DNA of 24,371 nt from Clostridia bacterium (GTDB taxonomy: Bacteria > Bacillota > Clostridia > Christensenellales > Aristaeellaceae), in NCBI GenBank assembly GCA_045599485.1, contig JAZRWA010000081.1:1-24371 (forward strand). Reading direction: 5' to 3'. Under the pieces are notes generated by a model that was given only the letters and a program-made list of their open reading frames with translations, ran no database searches and had not been told where the DNA came from. The position numbers and the translations under genes were made by a program. Shown in pieces: positions 4,009-23,307 of this stretch (the stretch's first letter is position 1; every line of letters starts with the position of its first letter).

Positions 4009-4093
4009 CGAGGATGAACGAACGGAGACAATTTGGGAACCACCCTTTTTGAAGCCAAAAAGGGCGGTTCCCAAGCCCTCCGCGAAAAAGCAG
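4006..4093 (+). repeat. Hairpin-plus-tail repeat, copy 1 (starts at the gpmI TAA)
   Basis: Stem-loop TTGGGAACC-ACCCTTTTTG-aagc-CAAAAAGGGC-GGTTCCCAA (4033-4074) followed by the tail GCCCTCCGCGAAAAAGCAG. It is near-identical to 15861-15921. Confidence 0.85.
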
Positions 4094-4107
4094 TTTAACT
4101 GCATAGA

Positions 4108-4176: not shown

Positions 4177-4266
4177 GCCCTTTCTCGGAGGGGGTAAAAG
4201 GGGGAACCATGCTTTCGGGCTCCGAAAGCGTGGTTCCCCCTTAAAAACCTTATCGTTCGCTGTCGA
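4177..4266 (-). repeat. Hairpin-plus-tail repeat, copy 2 (gene-sense with gdhA; doubles as its intrinsic terminator)
   Basis: Read on the minus strand: TAA, spacer ..ACGATAAGGTTTTT.., stem GGGGGAACCA...TGGTTCCCCC (4200-4240), then TTTTA and the tail CCCCCTCCGAGAAAGGGC. Confidence 0.85.
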
Positions 4267-7982
<3,716 letters not shown>

Positions 7983-8001
7983 AACACACCTCCGAACCGC
8001 T

Positions 8002-9105
8002 CTATAACAGATGCGAAATGCAATCCCGGTCCGCCTCCTCGGGGGAGAAGGTGATCAGGTAAACGCGCACATTGGGCCCCATGCGGCGGATGTCGCGGAC
8101 GGCATCGCTGAGCAGGGCACCAAGGCGTGTGGTAATGATGATGACGGCGCCGACCGATACGGCGGCACGGGCTTCCATGAGCAGTACCCGTCCGAAATCC
8201 TGCGGGGAGGAAAAGGTAAGGTGGGCAAGCAGGGTGCTCAGCCCTTCGGTGCTGCCCGAGGGGGCGGCGCGGAACTCGGCCACGTGCTCATCATAAAAGG
8301 GCATGCGCACGGGCGATTGATGGGACAGCTGGATCTCCGCGGCGGACAGCGCCGTCTCGGTCAGCACATCGCGCAAACACAGCGCGCTCTCGCCCTCTGC
8401 CGCGGGGGCGGAGCAGTCGGTCAGGATGAGGGTGCCGGGCGGGGCCGGCGTTTCAAAGCTGCGCACGATGAGCTCGCCGCGGCAGGCGCTCAGCTTCCAG
8501 TGGATGCGCTTGAGGGGGTCGCCGCTGCGCCAGGCGCGGGTGCTGTCGGGGTAGGAGGCATCCTCGGCGGCGGTGAGCCCGCGGGCGGAACCGTCGTCAC
8601 TGCCGGCATATTCCAGGTTCATGGCTTCAAAGGGGCGGGGCAGCACCAGCATTTCTCCGCTTGCGGCCGCAAGGCGGACACGGCAGCGGAACAGGTGCAA
8701 GGGGTCGCTGCAGGCGGCGGAAAGGATCGACAGGCGGCGGCAGCCGACATGGTCGCCGGGCAGGTCGATGGTCAGCTCGGGGCGGCGGGCAGAGCGGCAG
8801 ACAAAGGCGTGCAGAAAGCGCTGCTCCCCGAAGCGGCAATCCAGCGCCCAGCTCATGGGCGTCAGGTAGGAATGGTGATAAAAGCGCACTGCCGGCGAAA
8901 AGCTGCCGCCGCGGAGGACGCGCTGTTCGGCAGGATCGACCTCGCACCGCAGCGTCAGGCGCAGCAGCAGCAGACCCAGTCCGTTGTACAAAAGCGTCAG
9001 CACGGCAAAAACGGCCGCGATATAAAAGAATCGCGCGCCGGAGGCCAGCCCGAACAAAAGTGACATCAGGCCGGTCAGCAGGAAGAAAAAGCCGCGGGCC
9101 GTCAT
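8002..9105 (-). CDS. DUF58-family protein (MoxR-operon partner)
   Basis: 367 aa with two N-terminal TM helices and ...DSTRAWRSGDPLKRIHWKLSA..., typical of DUF58. ATG 9105 overlaps the MoxR TGA (ATGA). It ends at TAG 8002-8004. If TAG is read, it ends at TGA 7966-7968. Confidence 0.75.
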   Translation of the reverse strand: MTARGFFFLLTGLMSLLFGLASGARFFYIAAVFAVLTLLYNGLGLLLLRLTLRCEVDPAEQRVLRGGSFSPAVRFYHHSYLTPMSWALDCRFGEQRFLHAFVCRSARRPELTIDLPGDHVGCRRLSILSAACSDPLHLFRCRVRLAAASGEMLVLPRPFEAMNLEYAGSDDGSARGLTAAEDASYPDSTRAWRSGDPLKRIHWKLSACRGELIVRSFETPAPPGTLILTDCSAPAAEGESALCLRDVLTETALSAAEIQLSHQSPVRMPFYDEHVAEFRAAPSGSTEGLSTLLAHLTFSSPQDFGRVLLMEARAAVSVGAVIIITTRLGALLSDAVRDIRRMGPNVRVYLITFSPEEADRDCISHLL

Positions 9106-10055
9106 TTGAGGCGCATGGGGACGGGCACGGAGGAAAGCAGGGCGGACAGGATGCCGTCGGCGGTCTGCCCCTTCATGCGGGCTTCGGGCGACAGCACCAG
9201 ACGGTGCGCCAGCACCGGCACCGCCATGAGCTTGACATCCTCGGGCAGCACATAATCGCGCCCCGAGAGCAGGGCACAGCCCTGCGAGGCACGCAGCAGC
9301 GCGATGGAGCCGCGGGGCGAGGCGCCCAGCGTCAGCAGGGGATGGCTGCGGGTGGCGGCGGACAGCTGCGCCACATAGGCGCGGATCTACGGCGCGGTGT
9401 AGACATCGCCCACGGCCTGCTGCATGGACAGCACATCCTCGGCGGTGCAGACGGGCTGCAGCGCGCCGAGCGGCACACTGCGCCCGGTGTAGCGCTCCAG
9501 AATGTCCATCTCCTCTTCCAGCGTGGGGTAACCCATGCTGATGCGCAGAAAGAAACGGTCCATCTGCGCCTCGGGCAGGGGGTAGGTGCCGACAAAATCA
9601 ACGGGGTTCTGCGTGGCCAGCACCATAAAGGGCGCGGGCAGGGGGTGCGTGACGCCGTCCACCGTCACCTGACGCTCCTCCATCACCTCCAGCAGGCTGG
9701 ACTGTGTTTTGGGCGAGGTACGGTTGATCTCATCCGCCAGCACGATCTGGCTCATGACGGCACCAGGGCGGAATTCCATCTGCCCCGTGGTCAGCGACGG
9801 CATGGTAAAGCCCGTGATGTCGCTGGGCATCACGTCGGGTGTAAACTGAATGCGCTTGAACGAACAGGAAAGCGAACGCGCCAGCGCGGCCACCATGGTG
9901 GTCTTGCCCACACCGGGCACATCCTCGATCAGCACATGACCGCGGCAGATGAGGGCGATGAGCGCCAGATGGATGGCCTCATCCTTGCCGACGATGACGC
10001 GGCCGATGTTTTTGGAAAGGGCGGAAACCAGGGTCAGAAGGCTGTCTTTCAGCAT
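9102..10055 (-). CDS. MoxR-family AAA+ ATPase carrying one in-frame TAG at 9387-9389
   Basis: Start placed at ATG 10055 (MLKDSL...), with AAGGAG 6 nt upstream and downstream of the promoter at 10092-10120. Walker A is EDVPGVGKT and Walker B is VLADEINR. The frame continues VGDVYTAP-TAG-IRAYVAQLSAATRSHPLLTLGASPRG...GRDYVLPEDVK..HRL, the conserved MoxR lid. 317 codons. Stop is TGA. Confidence 0.85.
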
Positions 10056-10241: not shown

Positions 10242-11834
10242 ATGCTGCGAGTTGCCAACATTTCGGTGCCCCTGTGCCGGGACGCGGACAGGCGGGCTTT
10301 TGAGCTTGCCCTCAAAAAGCTGCGTCTTCCCGAAGAGAGGGTAACGGAATGGCATGTGAGCAAAAAAAGCGTGGACGCCCGGGACAAGTCGAAGCTGTGC
10401 TTTGTGTACGCCATCGACCTTGCCGTTGAAAAGGAAGAGGCCCTCCTCACACGTCTGAAACCCGGCATCGCCGCCAAGGCGCCCGAATCACAGCCCCTGT
10501 GCTGTGAGAAGGCGACCCCCAAAGCACACCGCCCCGTGGTGGTGGGGCTGGGACCGTGCGGGCTGTTTGCCGCCCTGTATCTGGCGCGGGCAGGGCTTCG
10601 CCCGATCTGCCTGGAAAGAGGGCAGCGGGTGGAGGAAAGAAAAAAGAGCGTGCAGCGGTTTTTTGCCGACGGCACGCTGGATCCCGAAAGCAATGTGCAG
10701 TTTGGCGAGGGCGGCGCGGGCGCTTTTTCCGACGGCAAGCTGACGACCGGCATCAAGGATGCCGCCTGCCGTCAGGTGCTGGAGGAGCTGGTGCGCCACG
10801 GCGCGCCCGATAACATTTTGTATGAGGCGCATCCCCATGTGGGCACCGACCGCCTGCCCGGCGCGGTGGCGGCCATCCGCGAGGAGATCCTTGCCCTGGG
10901 CGGCGAGGTGCGCTTTGAAACAAAACTGCTGGGACTGATCTCCGAAAACGGCCGTCTGCGCGCCCTGCGTGTGACGGACGGCAGCACTGAAACCGAATTG
11001 CCCTGCGACAGCGTCATTCTGGCATTGGGGCACAGCGCCCGCGACACCGTGCGGCAATTGTATGCCGACGGTCTGCGCATGGAGCAGAAGCCCTTTTCCG
11101 TGGGCGTGCGCGCGGAGCATCCGCAGGCGCTGGTCAACCGCTCGCAGTACGGCAAAGCCGCCGACAGCGGACTGCTGGGCGCGGCGGAATACCATATCCA
11201 TGTTAAATTGCCCGATGGACGTGGCGTGTACTCCTTCTGCATGTGTCCCGGCGGTCAGGTGATCGCCGCGGCCAGCGAGGAAGGCGGCGTGTGCACCAAC
11301 GGTATGAGCGTGTTTGCCCGTGACGGCGAAAACGCCAACGCCGCCCTGCTGGTGGATGTGCGTACGGAGGATTTTCCCTCTAAGCATCCGCTCGCGGGCA
11401 TGGAGATGCAGCGCGAATGGGAGCACAGGGCGTTTATCGCGGGCGGAGGCAATTACCGTGCCCCGGCGCAGCGCATGGAGGACTTTTTGAACCGCCGTCC
11501 CAGCACCCATGGCGGCCCGGTGCAGCCGAGCTATCGCCCGGGCGTGACGTGGACCGATCTGGACGAGGTGCTGCCTGCCTTCGCGGCGGAAAGCCTGCGG
11601 GCGGGCATCCCGCTGCTCAAAAGGCAGCTGCACTGCATTGACCTGCCCGACGCCGTGCTGACGGGCATTGAGGCACGCTCCTCCAGCCCCGTGCGCATCC
11701 CGAGGGATGAGACGCTGCAATCCACGGTGCGCGGCGTGTTCCCCGCCGGGGAGGGCGCCGGCTATGCGGGCGGCATCATGAGCGCGGCCGTGGACGGCCT
11801 GCGCGCCGCCAAAGCCCTGATCCAAAATGATTGA
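10242..11834 (+). CDS. FAD-dependent protein (COG2509-type NAD(FAD)-utilizing dehydrogenase)
   Basis: ATG 10242 lies 7 nt after GGAGG. Rossmann motif VVVGLGPCGLFAALYLARAG, plus ...FCMCPGGQV... and GEGAGYAGGIMSAAVDG. Stop is TGA. Confidence 0.8.
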   Translation: MLRVANISVPLCRDADRRAFELALKKLRLPEERVTEWHVSKKSVDARDKSKLCFVYAIDLAVEKEEALLTRLKPGIAAKAPESQPLCCEKATPKAHRPVVVGLGPCGLFAALYLARAGLRPICLERGQRVEERKKSVQRFFADGTLDPESNVQFGEGGAGAFSDGKLTTGIKDAACRQVLEELVRHGAPDNILYEAHPHVGTDRLPGAVAAIREEILALGGEVRFETKLLGLISENGRLRALRVTDGSTETELPCDSVILALGHSARDTVRQLYADGLRMEQKPFSVGVRAEHPQALVNRSQYGKAADSGLLGAAEYHIHVKLPDGRGVYSFCMCPGGQVIAAASEEGGVCTNGMSVFARDGENANAALLVDVRTEDFPSKHPLAGMEMQREWEHRAFIAGGGNYRAPAQRMEDFLNRRPSTHGGPVQPSYRPGVTWTDLDEVLPAFAAESLRAGIPLLKRQLHCIDLPDAVLTGIEARSSSPVRIPRDETLQSTVRGVFPAGEGAGYAGGIMSAAVDGLRAAKALIQND

Positions 11835-11851
11835 AAAAAGGAGGAAAGACC

Positions 11852-13420
11852 ATGCAGAATAACCCGCAGGAAAACCGTTATACCAAAAAAGGCTACGTGG
11901 AGCTGACCTCCTCTTATTCCGCCGCGCCGCGGCAGCCGCAGCGCCCCGCACAAAATAATCCGTACCAACAGCCGGTACAGAACAATCCATATCAGCAGCC
12001 TGCGCAGGGCAACCCGTATCAGCAGTCTGCGCAGAACAATCCGTATCAGCAGCCTGCGCAGGGCAATCCGTACCAACAGCCGGTACAGAACAACTCCTAT
12101 CAGCAGCCGGTACAGCCGCAGCCGCCGGAAGAGCCGGAGGACAGCGAATACCGTCAGGAATACTATCAGGCGCAAAAGCCCGCGCCCTTCAAGGCGCAGA
12201 ACGCCTATCAGGCCCCGAGGCCGAAGGGGCACGGTGCCTTCAACGTGATCCTGATCATACTGATCATTTTGCTGGTGCTGGCCGGCGGCATGGCGGTGTT
12301 CAGCCGTTATGGCGGCACCATCGACAACAAGCAGACCAGCGGCATCATCAATTCCAGCCTGCGCACCAGCTATACAGGCGACGCCGTCATTGTGCGCAAC
12401 GAGACGCTCTTTACGCAGGAGAACATTTCCCGCATTGAGTTTGGCGTCCGCGAAGGCGGTCAGGTCAAGCGCGGTGATACCGTTTGCACGGTGTACACCT
12501 CGGGCGTCAGCAAGACCGATATCAGCAACCTGGCCACCTACCGCACGCAGGTGGAAAGCTACATGAAAACGCTTCTGGCCTCCAGCAATGCGGAGACCGA
12601 TCAGGAGATGCGGTACCACAACAACACCGTGCTGCAGCTGGCGCAGGATATCCAGACCGCCGTACACCGCGGCGGCGGCAACCTCGGCAATCTGGAAAGC
12701 CGCCTCAACAGCGCCGTATCCGAGCGTGCCTATTACATCAAGCAGAAGTTTGTGGATGACCAGAAGCTGGCCAGGCTGTATGATGAGGCCAAAACCACCG
12801 AGCAGAAGGTGGAAACGTGGACCAAGTCCTTCGGCGCGACCGATGTGGGCGTGGTCTCCTTCTACACCGATTATTTTGAGCGCGCCCTCAACCTGAACAC
12901 CTATGAGAGCTTTTCTCCCGCCGAGGTGCGCTCCATGTACAACGGCATCCTGCCCGCTTCGGTCAACTTTGCCCGCAACGAGGTGCCTGTTTACCGTCTG
13001 GTGAGGGATGGCAGCTATGTGGTGCTGATGCTGTGCGACGACCTGACCTGGAACCCCACCGTGGGCTCCACCTATGAGCTGACCATTGAAAGCTTTTCCA
13101 ACCGCAGCGTGGCGGCGACGGTGGAATCGGTCTCCCTGTCCGACAAAGACCTGCTGGTGCGCCTGCGCATCAGCGGCAGCGTGAGCGACATCCTGTATGT
13201 GCGCTCCTGCCATGTGCAGCTGACCGAGATCATTGCCAGCATTGCCGTGCCCGCCGGCGCCATCACCACCTATAACGGCGAGATCGGTGTGGTCGTCATT
13301 CAGGCGGACGGCGAGTATTTCCTGCCCGTGACCATCATCAGTCAGGACAGCCAGACGGCGTACATCCTGCCGCAGATCGACAATATCCTGACGCAGAACT
13401 CCACCCTGCGCCTGTTCTGA
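11852..13420 (+). CDS. Membrane-anchored protein with an N-terminal Q/N/P/Y nonapeptide repeat and a HlyD/membrane-fusion-like body
   Basis: ATG 11852 lies 7 nt after GGAGG. It has a repeat region, a TM helix (AFNVILIILIILLVLAGGMAVF), then a lipoyl-like hairpin motif (GGQVKRGDTVCTVY) and a coiled-coil-like stretch. The functional call is tentative. Stop is TGA. Confidence 0.5.
   Translation: MQNNPQENRYTKKGYVELTSSYSAAPRQPQRPAQNNPYQQPVQNNPYQQPAQGNPYQQSAQNNPYQQPAQGNPYQQPVQNNSYQQPVQPQPPEEPEDSEYRQEYYQAQKPAPFKAQNAYQAPRPKGHGAFNVILIILIILLVLAGGMAVFSRYGGTIDNKQTSGIINSSLRTSYTGDAVIVRNETLFTQENISRIEFGVREGGQVKRGDTVCTVYTSGVSKTDISNLATYRTQVESYMKTLLASSNAETDQEMRYHNNTVLQLAQDIQTAVHRGGGNLGNLESRLNSAVSERAYYIKQKFVDDQKLARLYDEAKTTEQKVETWTKSFGATDVGVVSFYTDYFERALNLNTYESFSPAEVRSMYNGILPASVNFARNEVPVYRLVRDGSYVVLMLCDDLTWNPTVGSTYELTIESFSNRSVAATVESVSLSDKDLLVRLRISGSVSDILYVRSCHVQLTEIIASIAVPAGAITTYNGEIGVVVIQADGEYFLPVTIISQDSQTAYILPQIDNILTQNSTLRLF
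11951..12112 (+). repeat. Six tandem 27-bp coding repeats
   Basis: Units start at 11951, 11978, 12005, 12032, 12059 and 12086. Each encodes Q(N/G)N(P/S)YQQ(P/S)(V/A). Confidence 0.95.
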
Positions 13421-15000: not shown

Positions 15001-15837
15001 ATGCCTGCTGAAACCACGGTGCCCGTTTCCATTGCCGAGGATGTGCGGCTGGCGGCGGCGACGCTCAATCATTTTTATCAGAGCCTGCCTAATATTTTGT
15101 ATCATCTGGCCCTGTCGGGCGTGATCATTGTGCTGGGGCTGCTGCTGTTGAAGCTGATGCGGCGGCTGATCAACAAAAGCTATCGCCGCAAGGTGCAGGA
15201 GCGCAACTCCAGAGAGGCGGAAACCTTCCGTTCGCTCATCAGCAGCGTGGTCAGCTATCTGTTTTATTTTCTCATCGCGCTGACGGTGCTGCACGTGATG
15301 GGCGTGGATGTGTCCTCCATTCTGGCGGTTGCCGGAATCGGCACGGTCGCCATCGGCTTTGGCGCGCAGGCGCTGGTGAAAGACATCATCAGCGGCATGT
15401 TCCTGTGGCTGGAGGGCAATGTGGCGGTGGGCGATGTCATTACCGCCGCCGGCTGCAGCGGCGTGGTGGTCAGGGTATCGCTGCGCACCACCACCATCCG
15501 CAGCGCGGATGGCTGCTGCTGCGTGGTGCCCAACGGGGATATCCGAACGGTCATCTGCCGCTCCCGGGACATGGTCAAGTCACAGGTCAATGTGACGCTG
15601 GCACATGGGCAGGATATGGAAAAGGCGCTGGCCGTCCTGCGGGAGGAATGCGCTTTGGTGGGCGAGCAGCTGCACCTGAAGGACGCGCCGAAGGTGGTGG
15701 GCTGCATTGCCAACGACGCGCGCTGTGTGACCATCCGCTGTGAGTGCGACAGCAAGCCGTAGGATGACTGGCGGGTCGAGCGGGAGCTGCGCGAGCGGCT
15801 GTTTGAGCGGCTGTACCGCGAGGGCTTCAAGGCGTAA
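15001..15837 (+). CDS. MscS-family mechanosensitive channel carrying one in-frame TAG at 15760-15762
   Basis: AGGAGG lies 6 nt upstream. GIGTVAIGFGAQALVKDIISGMFLWLEGNVAVGDVI...LRTTTIRSADG..VPNGDI is the MscS core. After ..CECDSKP-TAG the frame continues DDWRVERELRERLFERLYREGFKA, typical of the MscS C-terminal helix, to TAA 15835-15837. Confidence 0.8.
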
Positions 15838-15921
15838 CGGAGACGAAGACGATGAGGTTTTTGGGAATCCCCCTTTTTGAAGTCCCAAAGGGCGGTTCCC
15901 AAGCCCTCCGCGAAAAAGCAG
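15835..15921 (+). repeat. Hairpin-plus-tail repeat, copy 3 (starts at the MscS TAA)
   Basis: TTGGGAATCCCCCTTTTTGAAGTCCCAAAGGGCGGTTCCCAA (15861-15902) plus GCCCTCCGCGAAAAAGCAG, near-identical to copy 1. Confidence 0.85.
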
Positions 15922-16291
15922 ATCAAAAAGTACTTACAATTTTGCTTTGATGTCAGTATCAGGAATCCCGGAACGTATGTTGTGATATTATCATGAAAAA
16001 CGGTAAGTTAAATCCGCAAGAAGTTTGAATGTGATGGATAATGATATGTTTGATGCGAAACAAATTGAATTTTTGCATGAAATCGGGTTATAGATAGATA
16101 ATGACAAACTAACCGATGACGATTGTATTTGTATTTAGGATGCAGTTTCGTAGTATCTTCAAAAATATGGCTTTGATGAAGGATATAACATCAATGAAAT
16201 GGGTGTCATGTGTGAGTCAATTTTAGATGTGATATCTGAAATCGACGAATTAAAATGATTAAGGCAAAGGATTAATGAAGTAAAAAAATCA
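15922..16291. other. AT-rich island (foreign-looking insert)
   Basis: Direct count gives 17/60 G+C for 16021-16080 and 19/60 for 16081-16140, against flanks above 60%. It is bounded by repeat copies 3 and 4. Confidence 0.8.
16034..16258 (+). pseudogene. 74-codon acidic ORF with three in-frame TAG codons (pseudogene under the standard code; intact if TAG is sense)
   Basis: One frame reads MDNDMFDAKQIEFLHEIGL-TAG-IDNDKLTDDDCICI-TAG-DAVS-TAG-YLQKYGFDEGYNINEMGVMCESILDVISEIDELK-TGA. TAGs are at 16091, 16136 and 16151. There is no in-frame TAA or TGA despite about 30% GC. No clear RBS. Confidence 0.5.
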
Positions 16292-16372
16292 GCCCTTTCT
16301 CGGAGGGGTGCAGGGGAACCATGCTTTCCGGCTTCGGAAAGCGTGGTTCCCCTGCATAAAAAAACCGGAGGT
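16292..16372 (-). repeat. Hairpin-plus-tail repeat, copy 4 (reverse orientation)
   Basis: Reverse-orientation tail GCCCTTTCTCGGAGGGG (16292-16308) and stem TGCAGGGGAACCA...TGGTTCCCCTGCA (16309-16356). The GGAGG RBS of the next gene lies in the element's spacer. Confidence 0.85.
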
Positions 16373-17002: not shown

Positions 17003-17079
17003 CGAGAGGATGTTGGGGCGACCACTCTTTCCGAAGCCGGAAAGCATGGTCGCCCCAAACCCCACCCGAAAAAGGGCAG
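17000..17079 (+). repeat. Hairpin-plus-tail repeat, copy 5 (starts at the DUF3267 TAA)
   Basis: TAACGAGAGGATG, stem TTGGGGCGACCA..CTTTCCGaagcCGGAAAG..TGGTCGCCCCAA (17013-17058), tail ACCCCACCCGAAAAAGGGCAG, then a T-run. Confidence 0.85.
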
Positions 17080-17266: not shown

Positions 17267-17321
17267 TTGGAAATCCTGCTTTTTGGCACAAAAAGCGTGG
17301 TTTCCAAGAACCCTCCATCCG
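17267..17321 (+). repeat. Hairpin-plus-tail repeat, copy 7 (diverged)
   Basis: TTGGAAATCCTGCTTTTTGgcaCAAAAAGCGTGGTTTCCAA (17267-17307) plus the tail GAACCCTCCATCCG, ending 3 nt from the DUF362 stop. Confidence 0.7.
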
Positions 17322-18534: not shown

Positions 18535-18572
18535 GGCCTTTTCTCGGGTGGGGTTCGGGGAGGGGATGCTTT
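18535..18572 (-). repeat. Truncated hairpin-plus-tail repeat, copy 8
   Basis: GGCCTTTTCTCGGGTGGGGTTCGGGGAGGGGATGCTTT parallels the reverse complement of copy 5 (TGCCCTTTTTCGGGTGGGGTTTGGGGCGACCATGCTTT). The second hairpin arm is missing. Confidence 0.6.
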
Positions 18573-20764: not shown

Positions 20765-22033
20765 TTAAACTCCACTTTCGTCCTGCATCCACAGGGTGCG
20801 GCGGCCTAAAACATCCACCGTCATGATGACGGGATCCCCACGCAGAATGGGCAGGCTGATGGTGGTTTGAAGCTATGGCGTCTGCTTGAGGCGCGCGGCG
20901 GAGGTGTAGACCTGAAAAACGCCGTCCCGGAGGTAGCCGGCGGACCACTGGTCCACCGCGTCGAGCGGGTGCCGGAGGCCGCCGGGCAGCAGCTTTTCGA
21001 TGAGCGCGCGGTCCTCCGCTCCCGGCAGGTAATCGGTCAGGGTGATGCTGTAATAGCCGATGCCGGGCAGCACCGAGGCCTCCATTTTTTCGGGGCGGTC
21101 GGAAAGGGGCGCACGCAGCGCCAGCCCTGTGCCGAGCAGGCGTTTGCGGCTGACCGAGATGGCGGCTTCCCCGCAGTCGATGCCCAGATAGCGGCAGCCG
21201 TTTTCGTGCGCGGCGATGAGCGTGGTGCCCGAGCCGCAGCACAGGTCGGCCACGAGGTCGCCGGGGCGGGTGCAGCAGCGGATGATGCGGTCCAGCAGCG
21301 CGCGGGGCTTTTGCGTATCATAGCCGGTGCGCTGGGGGTCCTTCTGCTGCAGGTGGCTGACATCCATCCACACGTCGTCGGGATAGACGGGCTCATCATC
21401 GTAATAGGTGTAGACCTTGCCGCCCACGCGGATGGTGCGGCAGGCGCGGCCGTTTTCGTCCACCGAGCGCTTCATGTGGTTTTCACGGTTTTCGCCGCGG
21501 GGGATGGGCACGCGGGTGATATCAAAAAACAGATTGCGGGATTTGGCGTAGAACAGGATGACGTCGTGCTTGCGGCTGAAATGCTTTTTGCTGCGGCCGC
21601 CGGACTGGTAGGCCCAGATGATCTCATTGATAAAGTTTTTTTCACCGAAGATCTCGTCGCACAGCAGGCGCGCGTAGGCGTTCATGCGGCTGTCCAGATG
21701 GAGGAAAAGGGCACCGGTATCGCTGAGAAGCAGCTTGGCCTGCTCCAGCAGGGCGCGCAGGAGCGTTAAAAATTCCTCCCGGCTGCTGCCGTGAAAATCG
21801 CCGAAGGCGGGCAGCGTCAGCACAGGGCTGCCTTTTTCCCAGCCCTCGCGGCCGCAGCGCATGCGGAAATGAAACTCCTCCCCGGTAAAGAAGGGGGGAT
21901 CGATATATACGCACTGCGCCTGCCCCTTCCACGGGGTCAGCGAAACAGCGGCGGCGTTGTCCATCAGCAGGATGCCGCCGGGGCCGTCGCTCATGTGCAG
22001 CTCTTTTTGACATTCGGTGCGGTGCCAGGCCAT
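20765..22033 (-). CDS. Beta-class (N6-adenine type, DPPF) DNA methyltransferase with a C-terminal extension, carrying one in-frame TAG at 20873-20875
   Basis: Motif IV is VYIDPPFF, followed by motif I DLCCGSGTTLIAAHENGCRYLGID (PF01555 order). After ..ARLKQTP-TAG the frame stays open for 35 GC-rich codons (LQTTISLPILRGDPVIMTVDVLGRRTLWMQDESGV) to TAA 20765-20767. That is exactly where composition drops to AT-rich intergenic DNA. Confidence 0.75.
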
Positions 22034-22039
22034 GGAATT

Positions 22040-22546
22040 TCAATCCCCCAGTTCACGGCGTAACGATTCAAAATAGGGTATCAGGGCATTCAGGTAGGCT
22101 TTGTTTTCGTCCGATTGGCACAGTACCCGGGCGGCCTCACGGGCGGCGTCGATAAAGGCGGGGTCCAGCGCGCGGGGGCCGTTTTCGGCCAGCGGACAGC
22201 AGGAGAAAGCCCTTGGATCCATGCGCAGGGCGATGCGGCCTTCCTCCTTGATGACAGGCGTCAGGGGAAAAAGACGGCAGGCCAGGGGACGGTCGTTGCG
22301 GTCACAGCGGCCGGAGCAGGTCAGCAGTGTCATGCCGGGCAGAACGCTGTCGTCGCGGCTCAGCGCAAAGCCTTCCGGCAAAACGCTGTACAGCGCTTCC
22401 TCACCGGGAAAGAGCAGCATGCCGCCCTGACCGTCCTCATCGGGCGCGCAGCAGGCGGCCCCGCAGACGCGGCCGCAATCGCTTTTGAGCGGGGTGATAT
22501 GCTGTAATAACGCCCTTGCGCGCAGCACCGCTTCCGTTGCCGTCAT
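22040..22546 (-). CDS. YkgJ-like cysteine-cluster protein (putative Zn/Fe-chelating domain)
   Basis: Start at ATG 22546 (MTATEAVL..) after GGAGG. Contains CGRVCGAACC plus later CSGRC and SCCP. Its TGA at 22040-22042 lies 6 nt from the methyltransferase ATG, so they are probably co-transcribed. Confidence 0.55.
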   Translation of the reverse strand: MTATEAVLRARALLQHITPLKSDCGRVCGAACCAPDEDGQGGMLLFPGEEALYSVLPEGFALSRDDSVLPGMTLLTCSGRCDRNDRPLACRLFPLTPVIKEEGRIALRMDPRAFSCCPLAENGPRALDPAFIDAAREAARVLCQSDENKAYLNALIPYFESLRRELGD

Positions 22547-22576
22547 GCCAAAACCTCCTGCATTATAAACGGGTAC

Positions 22577-22605
22577 AGTATAGCATAGTTTGGTATCGAA
22601 TGCAA
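22577..22605 (-). promoter_or_regulatory. Sigma-70-type promoter of the ykgJ-like/methyltransferase unit
   Basis: On the minus strand: TTGCAT (22605-22600), 17-nt spacer, TGC-extended TATACT (22582-22577). Confidence 0.55.
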
Positions 22606-22644
22606 CTTGACGGCCTTGGGGGGCCGTGACGGTGGCTGAAAGAG

Positions 22645-22677
22645 GCAAAAAAACAGCACGGTCATGAACCGTACTGC
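22645..22677 (-). terminator. Rho-independent terminator after the acetyltransferase gene
   Basis: On the minus strand: CAGTACGGT-tcatg-ACCGTGCTG stem followed by TTTTTTTG. Confidence 0.65.
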
Positions 22678-22686
22678 TTTGAACCG

Positions 22687-23307
22687 TTATTCGATGACAC
22701 GGTAGGAGCCGAGGATGTCGGGGCGGTTTTTGAGGCTGTCCGCCTCGGTGAGGGGGCGGATGACGCGGGCGGGCACGCCTGCGGCAAAGCTGTTTGCGGG
22801 AATGGAACGGGTGACCACGCTGCCCGCGCCGATGACGCAGCCATCGCCGATGGTGACGCCGGGACATACGGTCACGCCCGCGCCCAGCCAGCAGTCATTG
22901 CCGATGTGCACCTCCTCCGCCCAGCACAGGTGAGCATGGCTGCCATCGGGGGCCAGCAGCGCCCTGCGCTCCTCCTTGAGCATGGGGTGCAAAGGCGTCA
23001 CGATGGTCACATTGGGGCCGAAGTTGCAGTTCTCGCCGATAGTGACGGGGGCGTCATCCTGACAGGTGAAGTGGAAGTTGATAAAGGTGCCCTTTCCGAT
23101 GCGCGTATGGCTGCCGTAATGGAAGGTGATGGGGCCCTGCAAGTACACGCCTTCGCCCTTGAAGCCGAGCAGGGAGGCAAGGATGCTTTCCCTTTGCTCG
23201 GTCTCATCCTCATAGAGACGGTTATAATCCTGATTGAGGGCATGAGCCTTCTTTTTTTGTTCCTTGCGCCACGGCTCGGCGGGGTTGAACAGCTTTTCGG
23301 TTTGCAT
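22687..23307 (-). CDS. maa: Maltose/galactoside O-acetyltransferase (left-handed beta-helix)
   Basis: 206 aa with an N-terminal Mac domain and hexapeptide repeats (IGENCNFGPNVTI.., IGNDCWLGAGVTVCPGVTIGDGCVIGAGSVV). Stop is TAA. Confidence 0.8.
   Translation of the reverse strand: MQTEKLFNPAEPWRKEQKKKAHALNQDYNRLYEDETEQRESILASLLGFKGEGVYLQGPITFHYGSHTRIGKGTFINFHFTCQDDAPVTIGENCNFGPNVTIVTPLHPMLKEERRALLAPDGSHAHLCWAEEVHIGNDCWLGAGVTVCPGVTIGDGCVIGAGSVVTRSIPANSFAAGVPARVIRPLTEADSLKNRPDILGSYRVIE

What the first reader, a model, noticed from the sequence alone, without database searches (positions are those of the whole stretch)
15760..15837. The MscS channel's conserved C-terminal helix lies beyond an in-frame TAG
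After ..IRCECDSKP comes TAG (15760-15762), then 24 more GC-rich codons in frame: DDWRVERELRERLFERLYREGFKA. The frame ends at TAA 15835-15837.

MscS-family proteins typically end their beta-domain with a P-x-x-x-W-x-V-x-R-E-L/F motif followed by a helix. The extension therefore looks like real protein rather than 3' UTR.

The TAA, not the TAG, coincides with the start of repeat copy 3. This matches how copies 1, 2 and 5 abut the TAA of gpmI, gdhA and DUF3267.
Basis: partly seen in the sequence, partly recalled or inferred. Interest (0 to 1): 0.65.

Follow-up and report, generated by a model that had tools for sequence, protein, structure and literature searches.

The report
TAG apparently read as glutamate
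The "stop" codon TAG inside this bacterium's MscS channel gene is one of eight in-frame TAGs on the contig. All sit where relatives have glutamate or another acidic residue, and TAG never ends a gene, so this gut or rumen Clostridia lineage probably reads TAG as glutamate, which would be a genetic-code change not yet described in bacteria.

Summary
The MscS ORF (15001-15762) meets TAG at 15760-15762. Twenty-four more in-frame codons run to TAA at 15835-15837, and they are homologous to the C-terminus of every orthologue.

The TAG is not a local oddity. All five ORFs in the window that "end" in TAG continue in frame into conserved protein: MscS, a transglutaminase-like protein, a DUF58 protein, a MoxR ATPase and a DNA methylase. 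A sixth, small phage-related ORF carries three more TAGs.

- Close relatives have GAG or GAA (Glu) at four of these sites.
- In wider homologues the sites are Glu in 120 of 120 (MoxR) and 21 of 23 (transglutaminase).
- No gene has an in-frame TAA or TGA, or a frameshift.
- Real stops in the window are 10 TAA, 14 TGA and 0 TAG.
- In the surrounding clade, 0 of 53 database-called genes end in TAG, against 13.6% in more distant Clostridia.
- The MscS TAG is present in several independent assemblies that have diverged by dS of about 0.29.
- A G-to-T error or mutator bias is excluded.

Best reading: TAG is a sense codon here, most likely Glu, so MscS is a full-length 278-aa protein. The decoding tRNA and the state of release factor RF1 could not be examined.

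The parts
15001..15837 (+). MscS-family mechanosensitive channel, 278 codons when the TAG is read through (253 + TAG + 24)
   Evidence: Pfam PF21088, PF00924 and PF21082. NCBIfam MscS models. PDB 3t9n alignment to residues 44-268. Orthologues of 277-281 aa.
15760..15762 (+). In-frame TAG at codon 254 of MscS
   Evidence: Relative L004/P0001 has GAG here. L001-L003, from three different sequencing runs, have the same TAG. The homologue column is D 41, E 30, N 19.
15763..15834 (+). Post-TAG tail of MscS (DDWRVERELRERLFERLYREGFKA), the last helix of the cytoplasmic domain
   Evidence: GC3 is 0.92. The tail is homologous to orthologue C-termini such as ..EVWALERELRLAMFERLRAEGFKA. It is open in frame to the same TAA in every TAG-bearing relative.
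5694..7982 (-). Transglutaminase-like membrane protein, 762 codons, with an in-frame TAG at 6525-6527 (codon 486), five codons before the catalytic-motif Cys (GYCTYFAS)
   Evidence: Pfam Transglut_core covers residues 436-546 across the TAG, and DUF4129 lies downstream. L085 has GAG here. The site is Glu in 21 of 23 orthologues. dN/dS downstream is 0.24, against 0.27 upstream.
7966..9105 (-). DUF58 protein, 379 codons, with an in-frame TAG at 8002-8004 (codon 368) followed by 11 more codons to TGA
   Evidence: Relatives L085 and L087 have GAA (Glu) here, the identical tail [11 protein letters not shown], and a called length of 380 aa. The tail shows 3 synonymous and 0 non-synonymous changes.
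9102..10055 (-). MoxR-family AAA+ ATPase, 317 codons, with an in-frame TAG at 9387-9389 (codon 223) ahead of the AAA lid domain
   Evidence: Pfam AAA_3 covers residues 52-182 and AAA_lid_2 covers 246-315, in the numbering of the 329-aa query. PDB 2r44 aligns across the TAG. Four relatives have GAG. The site is Glu in 120 of 120 homologues.
20765..22033 (-). N6/N4 DNA methyltransferase, 422 codons, with an in-frame TAG at 20873-20875 (codon 387) followed by 35 more codons to TAA
   Evidence: Pfam N6_N4_Mtase. Homologues of 404-431 aa align out to query residues 412-421. The post-TAG segment is alignable (L..L..P...G......DV.GRR). The column is variable, with Glu the commonest residue at 6 of 27.
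16034..16258 (+). Small AT-rich ORF of 74 codons with three in-frame TAGs (16091-16093, 16136-16138, 16151-16153), ending in TGA
   Evidence: It is homologous to hypothetical protein WAK79800.1 of Flavonifractor phage Chenonceau: 41% identity over 68 aa spanning all three TAGs, which align to D, E and D.
15860..15926 (+). Copy of the intergenic hairpin repeat that follows the MscS TAA
   Evidence: It is 90% identical to copy 4032-4098, which follows the gpmI TAA at the same 23-24 nt spacing. The contigs of relatives L001-L004 all break inside it.

Best explanation
In this uncultured Clostridia lineage TAG is not a terminator. It is translated as an amino acid, most probably glutamate. MscS is therefore made as a full-length 278-aa channel subunit, with Glu at position 254 and the normal C-terminal helix, ending at TAA 15835-15837.

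Shown:
- There are several in-frame TAGs at Glu or acidic positions of intact, conserved genes.
- TAG is never used as a stop, in the window or in its wider clade.
- The MscS TAG persists across diverged lineages.

Inferred, not shown:
- The decoder is a tRNA with anticodon CUA charged with Glu, for example a derivative of tRNA-Glu.
- Release factor 1 has been lost, or no longer acts on UAG.
- The history looks like codon capture. The wider clade carries no TAG in coding frames at all, neither as a stop nor as a sense codon. The window's genus has begun to place TAG at Glu sites, about 1% of Glu codons.
For: 1. Every TAG-terminated ORF in the window continues in frame into homologous protein. 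This holds for MscS, the transglutaminase, DUF58, MoxR and the methylase. A phage-related small ORF adds three more TAGs.

2. Codons at the TAG sites in relatives of 85-92% nucleotide identity:
- MscS: GAG.
- Transglutaminase: GAG.
- MoxR: GAG in four of four relatives.
- DUF58: GAA in two of two relatives.

Wider homologues have Glu in 120 of 120 (MoxR) and 21 of 23 (transglutaminase). The small-ORF TAGs align to D, E and D. Under random nonsense mutation with the window's own substitution spectrum, only 11% of new TAGs would come from GAG, so four of four has P of about 1.7e-4 (3.5e-3 with equal rates).

3. In about 7,200 codons and 22 genes there is no in-frame TAA or TGA and no frameshift. 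Real stops, including two further ORFs, are TAA 10, TGA 14 and TAG 0.

4. Clade level, using database gene calls:
- L089: 0 of 20 genes end in TAG.
- L092: 0 of 20.
- L097: 0 of 13.

My own ORF filter gives 0 of 52 in L005-L011, against 27 of 199 (13.6%) in more distant Clostridia (Fisher P = 0.002). Taking 0 of 77 against an expected 13.6% gives P = 1.3e-5.

5. The MscS TAG occurs in three distinct sequence variants, from at least four sequencing runs and two NCBI assemblies. These form one allele clade that has diverged by dS of about 0.29, and the tail is still open to the same TAA in all of them. Another relative, L085, has its own TAG at a different transglutaminase codon, where homologues have N, D or E.

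6. The segments downstream of the TAGs remain under purifying selection.

7. G:C-to-T:A changes make up only 27 of 379 window-branch substitutions, so the GAG-to-TAG pattern does not come from a G-to-T bias.
Against: - No tRNA with a CUA anticodon was found. The window and 20 related loci hold only one tRNA, Leu-UAA. Two metagenome scans for a tRNA-Glu-like body with a CUA anticodon found nothing.
- The sample is small: one 24-kb contig plus about 20 kb from the same genus.
- That only TAG occurs among the in-frame stops is not significant on its own (P = 0.17 for 5 of 5, 0.06 for 8 of 8).
- The MscS tail alone has dN/dS of 0.45 over 24 codons, which cannot be told apart from relaxed selection.
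- Three close relatives (L004, L086, L087) show no in-frame TAG, and GCA_024500545.1 has the MscS TAG but GAG in MoxR. TAG use is therefore sparse and varies between lineages.
- The methylase site and the L085 site are not conserved Glu positions.
- GluRS normally reads the anticodon, so charging a CUA tRNA with Glu would need co-adaptation. This point rests on general knowledge and was not tested.
Confidence: 0.72

Rival explanations
1. These are ordinary nonsense mutations. The MscS gene and the other TAG-bearing genes are recent pseudogenes or tolerated truncations, and the post-TAG sequence has not yet decayed.
For: Close relatives have intact GAG versions of MoxR, the transglutaminase and DUF58. 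TAG is the commonest expected nonsense codon in this GC-rich genome, at 59-70% of routes. The MscS tail has a raised dN/dS of 0.45.
Against: - This would make 6 of about 25 genes pseudogenes, all by TAG and none by TAA, TGA or an indel.
- All datable sites derive from Glu codons, with P of about 2e-4 to 4e-3.
- Truncation would remove the transglutaminase catalytic core and the MoxR lid domain, yet the downstream dN/dS values are 0.24 and 0.19.
- The MscS TAG has persisted over dS of about 0.29 in several lineages.
- It does not explain why TAG is absent as a true stop in the window and across the clade.
Confidence: 0.1
2. TAG is translated, but not specifically as Glu. It could be read as Gln or pyrrolysine by a dedicated tRNA. 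Alternatively it could be read ambiguously by near-cognate tRNAs in a cell that lacks RF1 activity on UAG, so that TAG is an unassigned codon that is tolerated.
For: The same evidence that TAG is not a stop applies here. UAG is read as Gln in recoded phages and many eukaryotes, and as Pyl in some Firmicutes (general knowledge; PMC8629427). The methylase and L085 sites are variable positions. No tRNA was recovered that could settle the amino acid.
Against: - None of the TAG sites aligns to Gln, Lys, Tyr or Trp in close relatives.
- Four of four datable sites are GAG or GAA. Two of them are invariant or nearly invariant Glu, and the three small-ORF sites are acidic.
- If TAG meant Gln, the easy C-to-T route from CAG (235 codons, the largest single route at 33%) should dominate, and it is never seen.
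- No methylamine methyltransferase or pyl gene lies in the window.
Confidence: 0.14
3. This is a sequencing or assembly artefact, for example oxidative G-to-T errors, or a chimeric or contaminated MAG contig.
For: GAG to TAG is a G-to-T change. The window is a MAG contig.
Against: - The MscS TAG is reproduced in independent assemblies from several runs and in a second NCBI genome.
- G:C-to-T:A is a minor class, 27 of 379, on the window branch.
- The DUF58 site differs from relatives by two bases, GAA against TAG.
- The contig is syntenic with relatives across housekeeping genes, in the order FAD protein, HlyD-like, SepF, DivIVA, MscS.
- An artefact cannot remove true TAG stops.
Confidence: 0.03

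Closest known systems
Bacterial UGA reassignments (code 4, UGA to Trp, in Mycoplasmatales, several endosymbionts and some Eggerthellaceae; code 25, UGA to Gly, in Absconditabacteria and Gracilibacteria)
   Same: A stop codon appears in frame at conserved positions of ordinary genes. It is no longer used as a terminator, and the trait is shared by a clade (PMC8629427; PMC13462651).
   Different: The codon here is UAG and the inferred amino acid is Glu. The release factor expected to be affected is RF1, not RF2. The genome is GC-rich (about 60%) and shows no sign of reduction. Here the cognate tRNA and the loss of the release factor are not demonstrated. The papers read state that all known bacterial stop reassignments involve UGA.
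UAR to Glu nuclear codes of eukaryotes (Blastocrithidia nonstop; peritrich ciliates, NCBI table 30)
   Same: UAG is read as glutamate. GAG and UAG differ by one base, so Glu codons can drift to UAG (PMC12153298 abstract; table 30 from general knowledge).
   Different: Those are eukaryotes that use eRF1, and UAA and UAG change together. Here TAA remains the commonest or second-commonest terminator, with 10 of 24 stops.
Amber-recoded phages (TAG to Gln and others, in crAss-like, Lak and other gut phages)
   Same: In-frame TAG occurs in gut-associated sequences. Standard gene callers split such genes into fragments.
   Different: The window is chromosomal, carrying gpmI, gdhA, sepF, divIVA and mreB. 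The TAG sites align to Glu, not Gln. Usage is very sparse, at about 0.1% of codons.
Pyrrolysine decoding of UAG (pylTSBCD) in some Firmicutes and archaea
   Same: UAG is translated in bacteria, and UAG is depleted as a stop in obligate Pyl users (10.1101/2024.09.30.615893 abstract).
   Different: The TAG sites here replace Glu codons in unrelated housekeeping proteins, not sites in methylamine methyltransferases. No pyl genes were seen, but the genome could not be searched.
Genomically recoded E. coli (C321.deltaA and RF1-free strains)
   Same: The wider clade's state resembles the engineered state: no TAG in any coding frame and only TAA or TGA as terminators. That state frees UAG for a new meaning (PMC11903333 and PMC4434889, listed).
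   Different: This is natural rather than engineered, and loss of RF1 is only inferred.

Membership tests
MscS family (small-conductance mechanosensitive channel) | Pore-lining TM2/TM3 helices (PF21088) and beta-domain (PF00924) | tested here: met
   PF21088 scores 39.1 bits against a cut-off of 23.1. PF00924 scores 54.4 bits against 20.2. The PDB hit 3t9n has E = 3.5e-40.
MscS family (small-conductance mechanosensitive channel) | C-terminal alpha/beta cytoplasmic domain (PF21082) present and complete | tested here: inconclusive
   PF21082 aligns to residues 196-275 (profile positions 3-85 of 88) across the TAG. Its score of 20.4 bits is just below the 21-bit cut-off. The 3t9n alignment and 119 orthologues cover the same segment.
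Stop-codon reassignment (alternative genetic code) | The codon occurs in frame in several unrelated conserved genes, at positions that share one amino acid in homologues | tested here: met
   There are eight TAGs in six genes. Four of four datable sites are GAG or GAA in relatives. Wider homologues have Glu in 120 of 120 and 21 of 23. Three sites align to acidic residues in the phage homologue.
Stop-codon reassignment (alternative genetic code) | The codon is no longer used to terminate genes | tested here: met
   Window stops are TAA 10, TGA 14 and TAG 0. Clade relatives give 0 of 53 by database gene calls and 0 of 52 by my ORF filter. More distant Clostridia give 27 of 199.
Stop-codon reassignment (alternative genetic code) | A cognate tRNA with the matching anticodon (CUA) | not testable with these tools
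   There is no tRNA in the window and none with CUA in 20 related loci. Pattern scans of metagenome contigs found nothing. The full assemblies could not be read.
Stop-codon reassignment (alternative genetic code) | Loss or altered specificity of the matching release factor (RF1, prfA) | not testable with these tools
   No genome-wide search was possible. The species is not among the GTDB representatives scanned.
Stop-codon reassignment (alternative genetic code) | Phylogenetic coherence, with the trait shared by related lineages | tested here: met
   In-frame TAGs occur in at least three lineages of the genus at 85-92% nucleotide identity: the window, the L001 type and L085. Absence of TAG stops extends to relatives at about 55% MscS identity and 77% MoxR identity.
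Pyrrolysine system | pylT/pylS/pylBCD genes, and TAG in methylamine methyltransferase genes | not tested
   None of these genes lies in the 24-kb window. The TAG sites replace Glu codons, which does not fit Pyl. The genome could not be searched.
Programmed (context-dependent) stop-codon readthrough | A shared sequence context or downstream structure at the readthrough sites | tested here: not met
   The contexts differ: CCG TAG GAT, CGT TAG CAG, TTA TAG AGC, CCG TAG ATC, CCA TAG CTT. There is no Rfam match in the window. No fold analysis of the individual sites was done.

The most novel reading that the evidence does not exclude
A family-level clade of gut and rumen Clostridia has purged TAG from all reading frames, presumably after losing RF1 activity on UAG. 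One genus within it has captured the free codon for glutamate. This would be the first natural reassignment of UAG to a canonical amino acid in a bacterium. It would also be a live example of the codon-capture route, with the unassigned stage and the reassigned stage both surviving in sister lineages.
Probability: 0.5. Interest if true: 0.93.

Novelty: new variant of a known kind. Interest (0 to 1): 0.86.

Why it matters
**Genetic code.** The papers read say that every accepted natural stop-codon reassignment in bacteria involves UGA (PMC8629427, 2021; PMC13462651, 2026). UAG is known only as conditional pyrrolysine. A bacterial UAG-to-Glu code would be a new entry in the table of genetic codes. 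It would also show that RF1-dependent termination can be given up in nature, as it has been in engineered E. coli.

**Evolution.** Sister lineages with no TAG at all sit next to lineages that use TAG sparingly at Glu sites. That gives a direct test bed for the codon-capture and ambiguous-intermediate models.

**Annotation.** Standard gene callers split or truncate these genes. MscS is listed as 253 aa, the transglutaminase as 485 plus 265 aa, and MoxR as 234 aa. Protein databases and pseudogene counts for this clade are therefore wrong.

**Phage and gene transfer.** Phage and horizontal gene traffic into and out of such hosts would be filtered by the code difference.

Tried and rejected
- **G-to-T error or mutator bias.** I polarised substitutions on a four-sequence alignment. 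GC-to-TA is only 27 of 379 on the window branch. Rejected.
- **TAG-only pattern as proof.** It is not significant on its own: P = 0.17 for 5 of 5 and 0.06 for 8 of 8. I did not rely on it.
- **Synteny in GTDB genomes.** The single genome-contig scan showed that the species is not among the representatives (best MscS identity 55-56%). MoxR and the transglutaminase are not next to MscS in those relatives.
- **First crude ORF caller.** It produced spurious antisense TAG-ending ORFs. I replaced it with a GC3>GC1>GC2 filter and with the database's own gene calls.
- **Looking for tRNA(CUA).** ARAGORN on the window and on 20 loci found none. Two metagenome pattern scans for a tRNA-Glu-like CUA tRNA gave no hits. 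This is uninformative, because the genus seems to be absent from that collection and the tRNA body was guessed.
- **Extending the contig.** The window is the whole 24,372-nt NCBI contig. Look-ups of two window proteins found no record.
- **Third homologue search (transglutaminase).** It did not return the close fragments, only orthologues of 35-50% identity. These were still useful for column statistics.
- **One look-up returned no DNA**.
- **Other searches that led nowhere.** Rfam found nothing in the window. The small ORF had no Pfam or plasmid match.

Full report
**1. The observation**

The window reads ...AAG CCG TAG GAT GAC TGG CGG GTC GAG..., with TAG at 15760-15762. The frame stays open for 24 codons (DDWRVERELRERLFERLYREGFKA) and ends at TAA 15835-15837.

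The tail's GC by codon position is 0.79/0.38/0.92, which is a coding pattern. The intergenic stretch that follows is 0.43 GC.

With the TAG masked, three lines of evidence cover the tail:
- Pfam finds the three MscS domains. The C-terminal one (PF21082) aligns to residues 196-275, that is, across the TAG, but at 20.4 bits it is a hair below its 21-bit cut-off.
- The solved Thermoanaerobacter MscS (3t9n) aligns to residues 44-268 across the TAG.
- Of the 120 best database homologues, almost all are 270-290 aa long and cover the tail.

A hairpin repeat copy starts 23 nt after the TAA. Another copy starts 24 nt after the gpmI TAA.

**2. The TAG in relatives**

The closest full-length orthologue (P0001, 89% identity, locus L004) has GAG (Glu) at the TAG position and the same TAA.

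A second group of sequences carries the same TAG, followed by an open tail to the same TAA. This group comprises P0002, P0122 and the window's own P0121. The sequences are 253 aa as called and come from at least four sequencing runs and two NCBI assemblies. The TAG-bearing sequences form one allele clade. They differ from each other by dS of about 0.29. The TAG is therefore real, not an assembly error, and it is not recent.

**3. The rest of the window**

The decisive step was to look at the other ORFs. All five ORFs that end in TAG continue in frame into conserved protein.

- **Transglutaminase-like protein.** Fragments 6525..7982 and 5694..6491 join into one 762-codon gene. Pfam Transglut_core covers residues 436-546. 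The TAG is codon 486, five residues before the GYCTYFAS catalytic motif.
- **MoxR ATPase.** The gene continues through its AAA lid domain.
- **DUF58 protein.** It gains 11 codons and then matches the 380-aa length of relatives.
- **DNA methylase.** It gains 35 codons that align with the C-termini of homologues of 404-431 aa.
- **Small AT-rich ORF (16034-16258).** It has three more in-frame TAGs. It is homologous over 68 of its 74 residues to a hypothetical protein of Flavonifractor phage Chenonceau.

All other genes are full length against Pfam, with no in-frame TAA or TGA and no frameshift. These are the ArsR-family regulator, M18 aminopeptidase, GpmI, GdhA, an FAD-dependent protein, an HlyD-like protein, SepF, DivIVA, DUF3267, DUF362, a GNAT acetyltransferase, an OmpR-type DNA-binding protein, MreB, a hexapeptide acetyltransferase, a thioesterase and a rhomboid protease.

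With TAG treated as sense, the window's terminators are TAA 10, TGA 14 and TAG 0.

**4. What stands at the TAG sites in other sequences**

| Site | Relatives at 85-92% nucleotide identity | Wider homologues |
|---|---|---|
| MscS codon 254 | GAG (L004) | D 41, E 30, N 19 of 119 |
| Transglutaminase codon 486 | GAG (L085) | Glu in 21 of 23 |
| MoxR codon 223 | GAG in four of four | Glu in 120 of 120 |
| DUF58 codon 368 | GAA in two of two | not examined |
| Methylase codon 387 | no close relative available | variable, Glu commonest at 6 of 27 |
| Small ORF, three sites | no close relative available | D, E and D in the phage homologue |

One relative, L085, has its own in-frame TAG at transglutaminase codon 236. 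The window has TCG there, and homologues have N, D or E.

Every TAG site whose history can be read is thus a Glu codon, and none is Gln, Lys, Tyr or Trp. Under random nonsense mutation, weighted by the substitution spectrum measured on the window's own branch, only 11% of new TAGs would come from GAG. The largest route would be CAG by C-to-T, at 33%. Four of four from Glu has P of about 1.7e-4, or 3.5e-3 with equal rates.

**5. TAG as a terminator in the clade**

The species is not among 185,579 GTDB representatives. The nearest have 55% MscS identity and are rumen or gut Clostridia MAGs.

| Sequence set | Gene calls used | Genes ending in TAG |
|---|---|---|
| L089 (MoxR 75% identical to the window's) | database | 0 of 20 |
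| L092 (MscS 54%) | database | 0 of 20 |
| L097 (MscS 54%, syntenic with the window) | database | 0 of 13 |
| L005-L011 | my GC3>GC1>GC2 ORF filter | 0 of 52 |
| 20 more distant Clostridia loci | same ORF filter | 27 of 199 (13.6%) |

The last two rows differ with Fisher P = 0.002. Taking the window plus the database calls, 0 of 77 has P = 1.3e-5 at an expected 13.6%. The upper 95% bound on TAG-stop use is 3.8%.

Those wider relatives also show no credible in-frame TAG. In them TAG seems simply absent from coding frames. The window's genus uses it sparsely, at 8 in about 7,300 codons, or roughly 1% of Glu codons.

**6. Alternatives**

- **Artefact.** The MscS TAG recurs in independent assemblies. 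The DUF58 site differs from relatives by two bases. G:C-to-T:A changes are a minor class, 27 of 379. Rejected.
- **Pseudogenes.** This would need 6 of about 25 genes to be hit, all by TAG and all at Glu or acidic sites, with no other lesion. It would also need downstream dN/dS to remain at 0.24 (transglutaminase), 0.19 (MoxR), and 0 non-synonymous against 3 synonymous changes (DUF58 tail). It does not explain the missing TAG stops. The MscS tail alone (dN/dS 0.45 over 24 codons) would not be decisive.
- **Context-dependent readthrough.** The contexts share nothing, and Rfam finds nothing.
- **Gln, Pyl or ambiguous near-cognate decoding.** These cannot be excluded without the tRNA. They fit the Glu-only pattern poorly, and no pyl-type gene is in the window.

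**7. Mechanism**

Shown: TAG is tolerated inside essential domains. It sits at Glu positions, is inherited across diverged lineages, and is not used as a stop.

Inferred: a tRNA with anticodon CUA charged with glutamate reads it. RF1 is lost or no longer acts on UAG. The history follows codon capture, with TAG first purged in the clade and then reintroduced at Glu sites in one genus.

I could not test the tRNA or RF1. The window is the whole contig, no fetched locus holds a CUA tRNA, and two pattern scans for a tRNA-Glu-like CUA tRNA in metagenome contigs found nothing. That negative result is weak, because the tRNA body was guessed and the genus appears to be missing from that collection.

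**8. Comparison with what is known**

The MscS itself is an ordinary member of the MscS family. What is unusual is the code.

The papers I read state that all known bacterial stop reassignments involve UGA (PMC8629427; PMC13462651). A 2026 k-mer screen of prokaryotic assemblies reports no bacterial TAG reassignment, and it treats TAA/TAG-to-Glu signals as eukaryotic contamination (10.64898/2026.04.02.715157).

UAR to Glu is known in eukaryotes such as Blastocrithidia (PMC12153298). TAG to Gln is known in phages, and TAG to Pyl in some Firmicutes and archaea.

A contaminant is unlikely here. The contig is bacterial and syntenic with Clostridia relatives, and it keeps TAA as a stop. I therefore rate this as a new variant of a known kind of system.

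**9. Verdict**

The best explanation is that TAG is a sense codon, most probably Glu, in this lineage, with confidence of about 0.7. Full assemblies, read pile-ups and proteomics would settle it.

Noticed in passing
window 16034-16258 (+): A small AT-rich ORF (GC3 0.31 on a contig of 61% GC) sits between two hairpin repeats. It carries three in-frame TAGs in 74 codons, a far higher density than in the housekeeping genes. Its only detectable homologue is a hypothetical protein that lies between the head-morphogenesis and neck genes of Flavonifractor phage Chenonceau. It may be a phage-derived gene adapted to a host that reads TAG.
   Followed up: partly
window 4032-4098, 4202-4238, 15860-15926, 16293-16352, 17016-17075, 17269-17305, 18536-18572: A family of intergenic palindromic hairpin elements (GGGAACC...GGTTCCC, often followed by AAGCCCTCCGCGAAAAAG). 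They lie 23-24 nt after gene ends, in either orientation. They look like REP-like or terminator-like repeats. They have no Rfam match.
   Followed up: partly
L001-L004 (3' ends), aligned to window 15838-15889: All four relatives' contigs stop at the same point inside the hairpin repeat after MscS. The repeat is therefore numerous enough in these genomes to break short-read assemblies.
   Followed up: no
L085 4724-4726 (transglutaminase codon 236): A relative from another sequencing run has its own in-frame TAG where the window has TCG (Ser) and homologues have N, D or E. This shows that TAG positions turn over between lineages of the genus.
   Followed up: yes
L005-L011, L089-L095, L097: Relatives at family-level distance (MscS about 55% identical, MoxR about 75%) show no TAG at all in coding frames, neither as a stop nor in frame. 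More distant Clostridia end 13.6% of genes in TAG. TAG looks unassigned or purged across a whole clade.
   Followed up: partly
window 11939-12115 (+): A tandem repeat with a 27-nt period lies inside the HlyD-like gene 11831-13420. It encodes a Pro/Gln/Asn-rich repeat of the N-P-Y-Q-Q-P-A-Q type near the N-terminus.
   Followed up: no
window about 22040-22630 (-): A probable gene that the coarse ORF filter missed. It contains a CGRVCGAACC Cys-rich motif and ends in TGA. The longer ORF 22040-22867 has no Pfam hit, and its N-terminal part has poor coding statistics.
   Followed up: no
window 5950-6200 (-), transglutaminase residues about 555-625: A long Pro/Ser/Thr/Glu-rich low-complexity linker ([12 protein letters not shown]...) lies between the transglutaminase core and a second transmembrane segment. 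It probably caused the word-based homologue search to miss the close fragments.
   Followed up: no
assemblies GCA_024500545.1 and GCA_024404275.1: GCA_024500545.1 carries the MscS TAG allele (P0002) but an intact GAG MoxR (P0128). TAG sites are therefore polymorphic between genomes of the genus. These two public assemblies are the obvious places to look for tRNA(CUA) and prfA.
   Followed up: no
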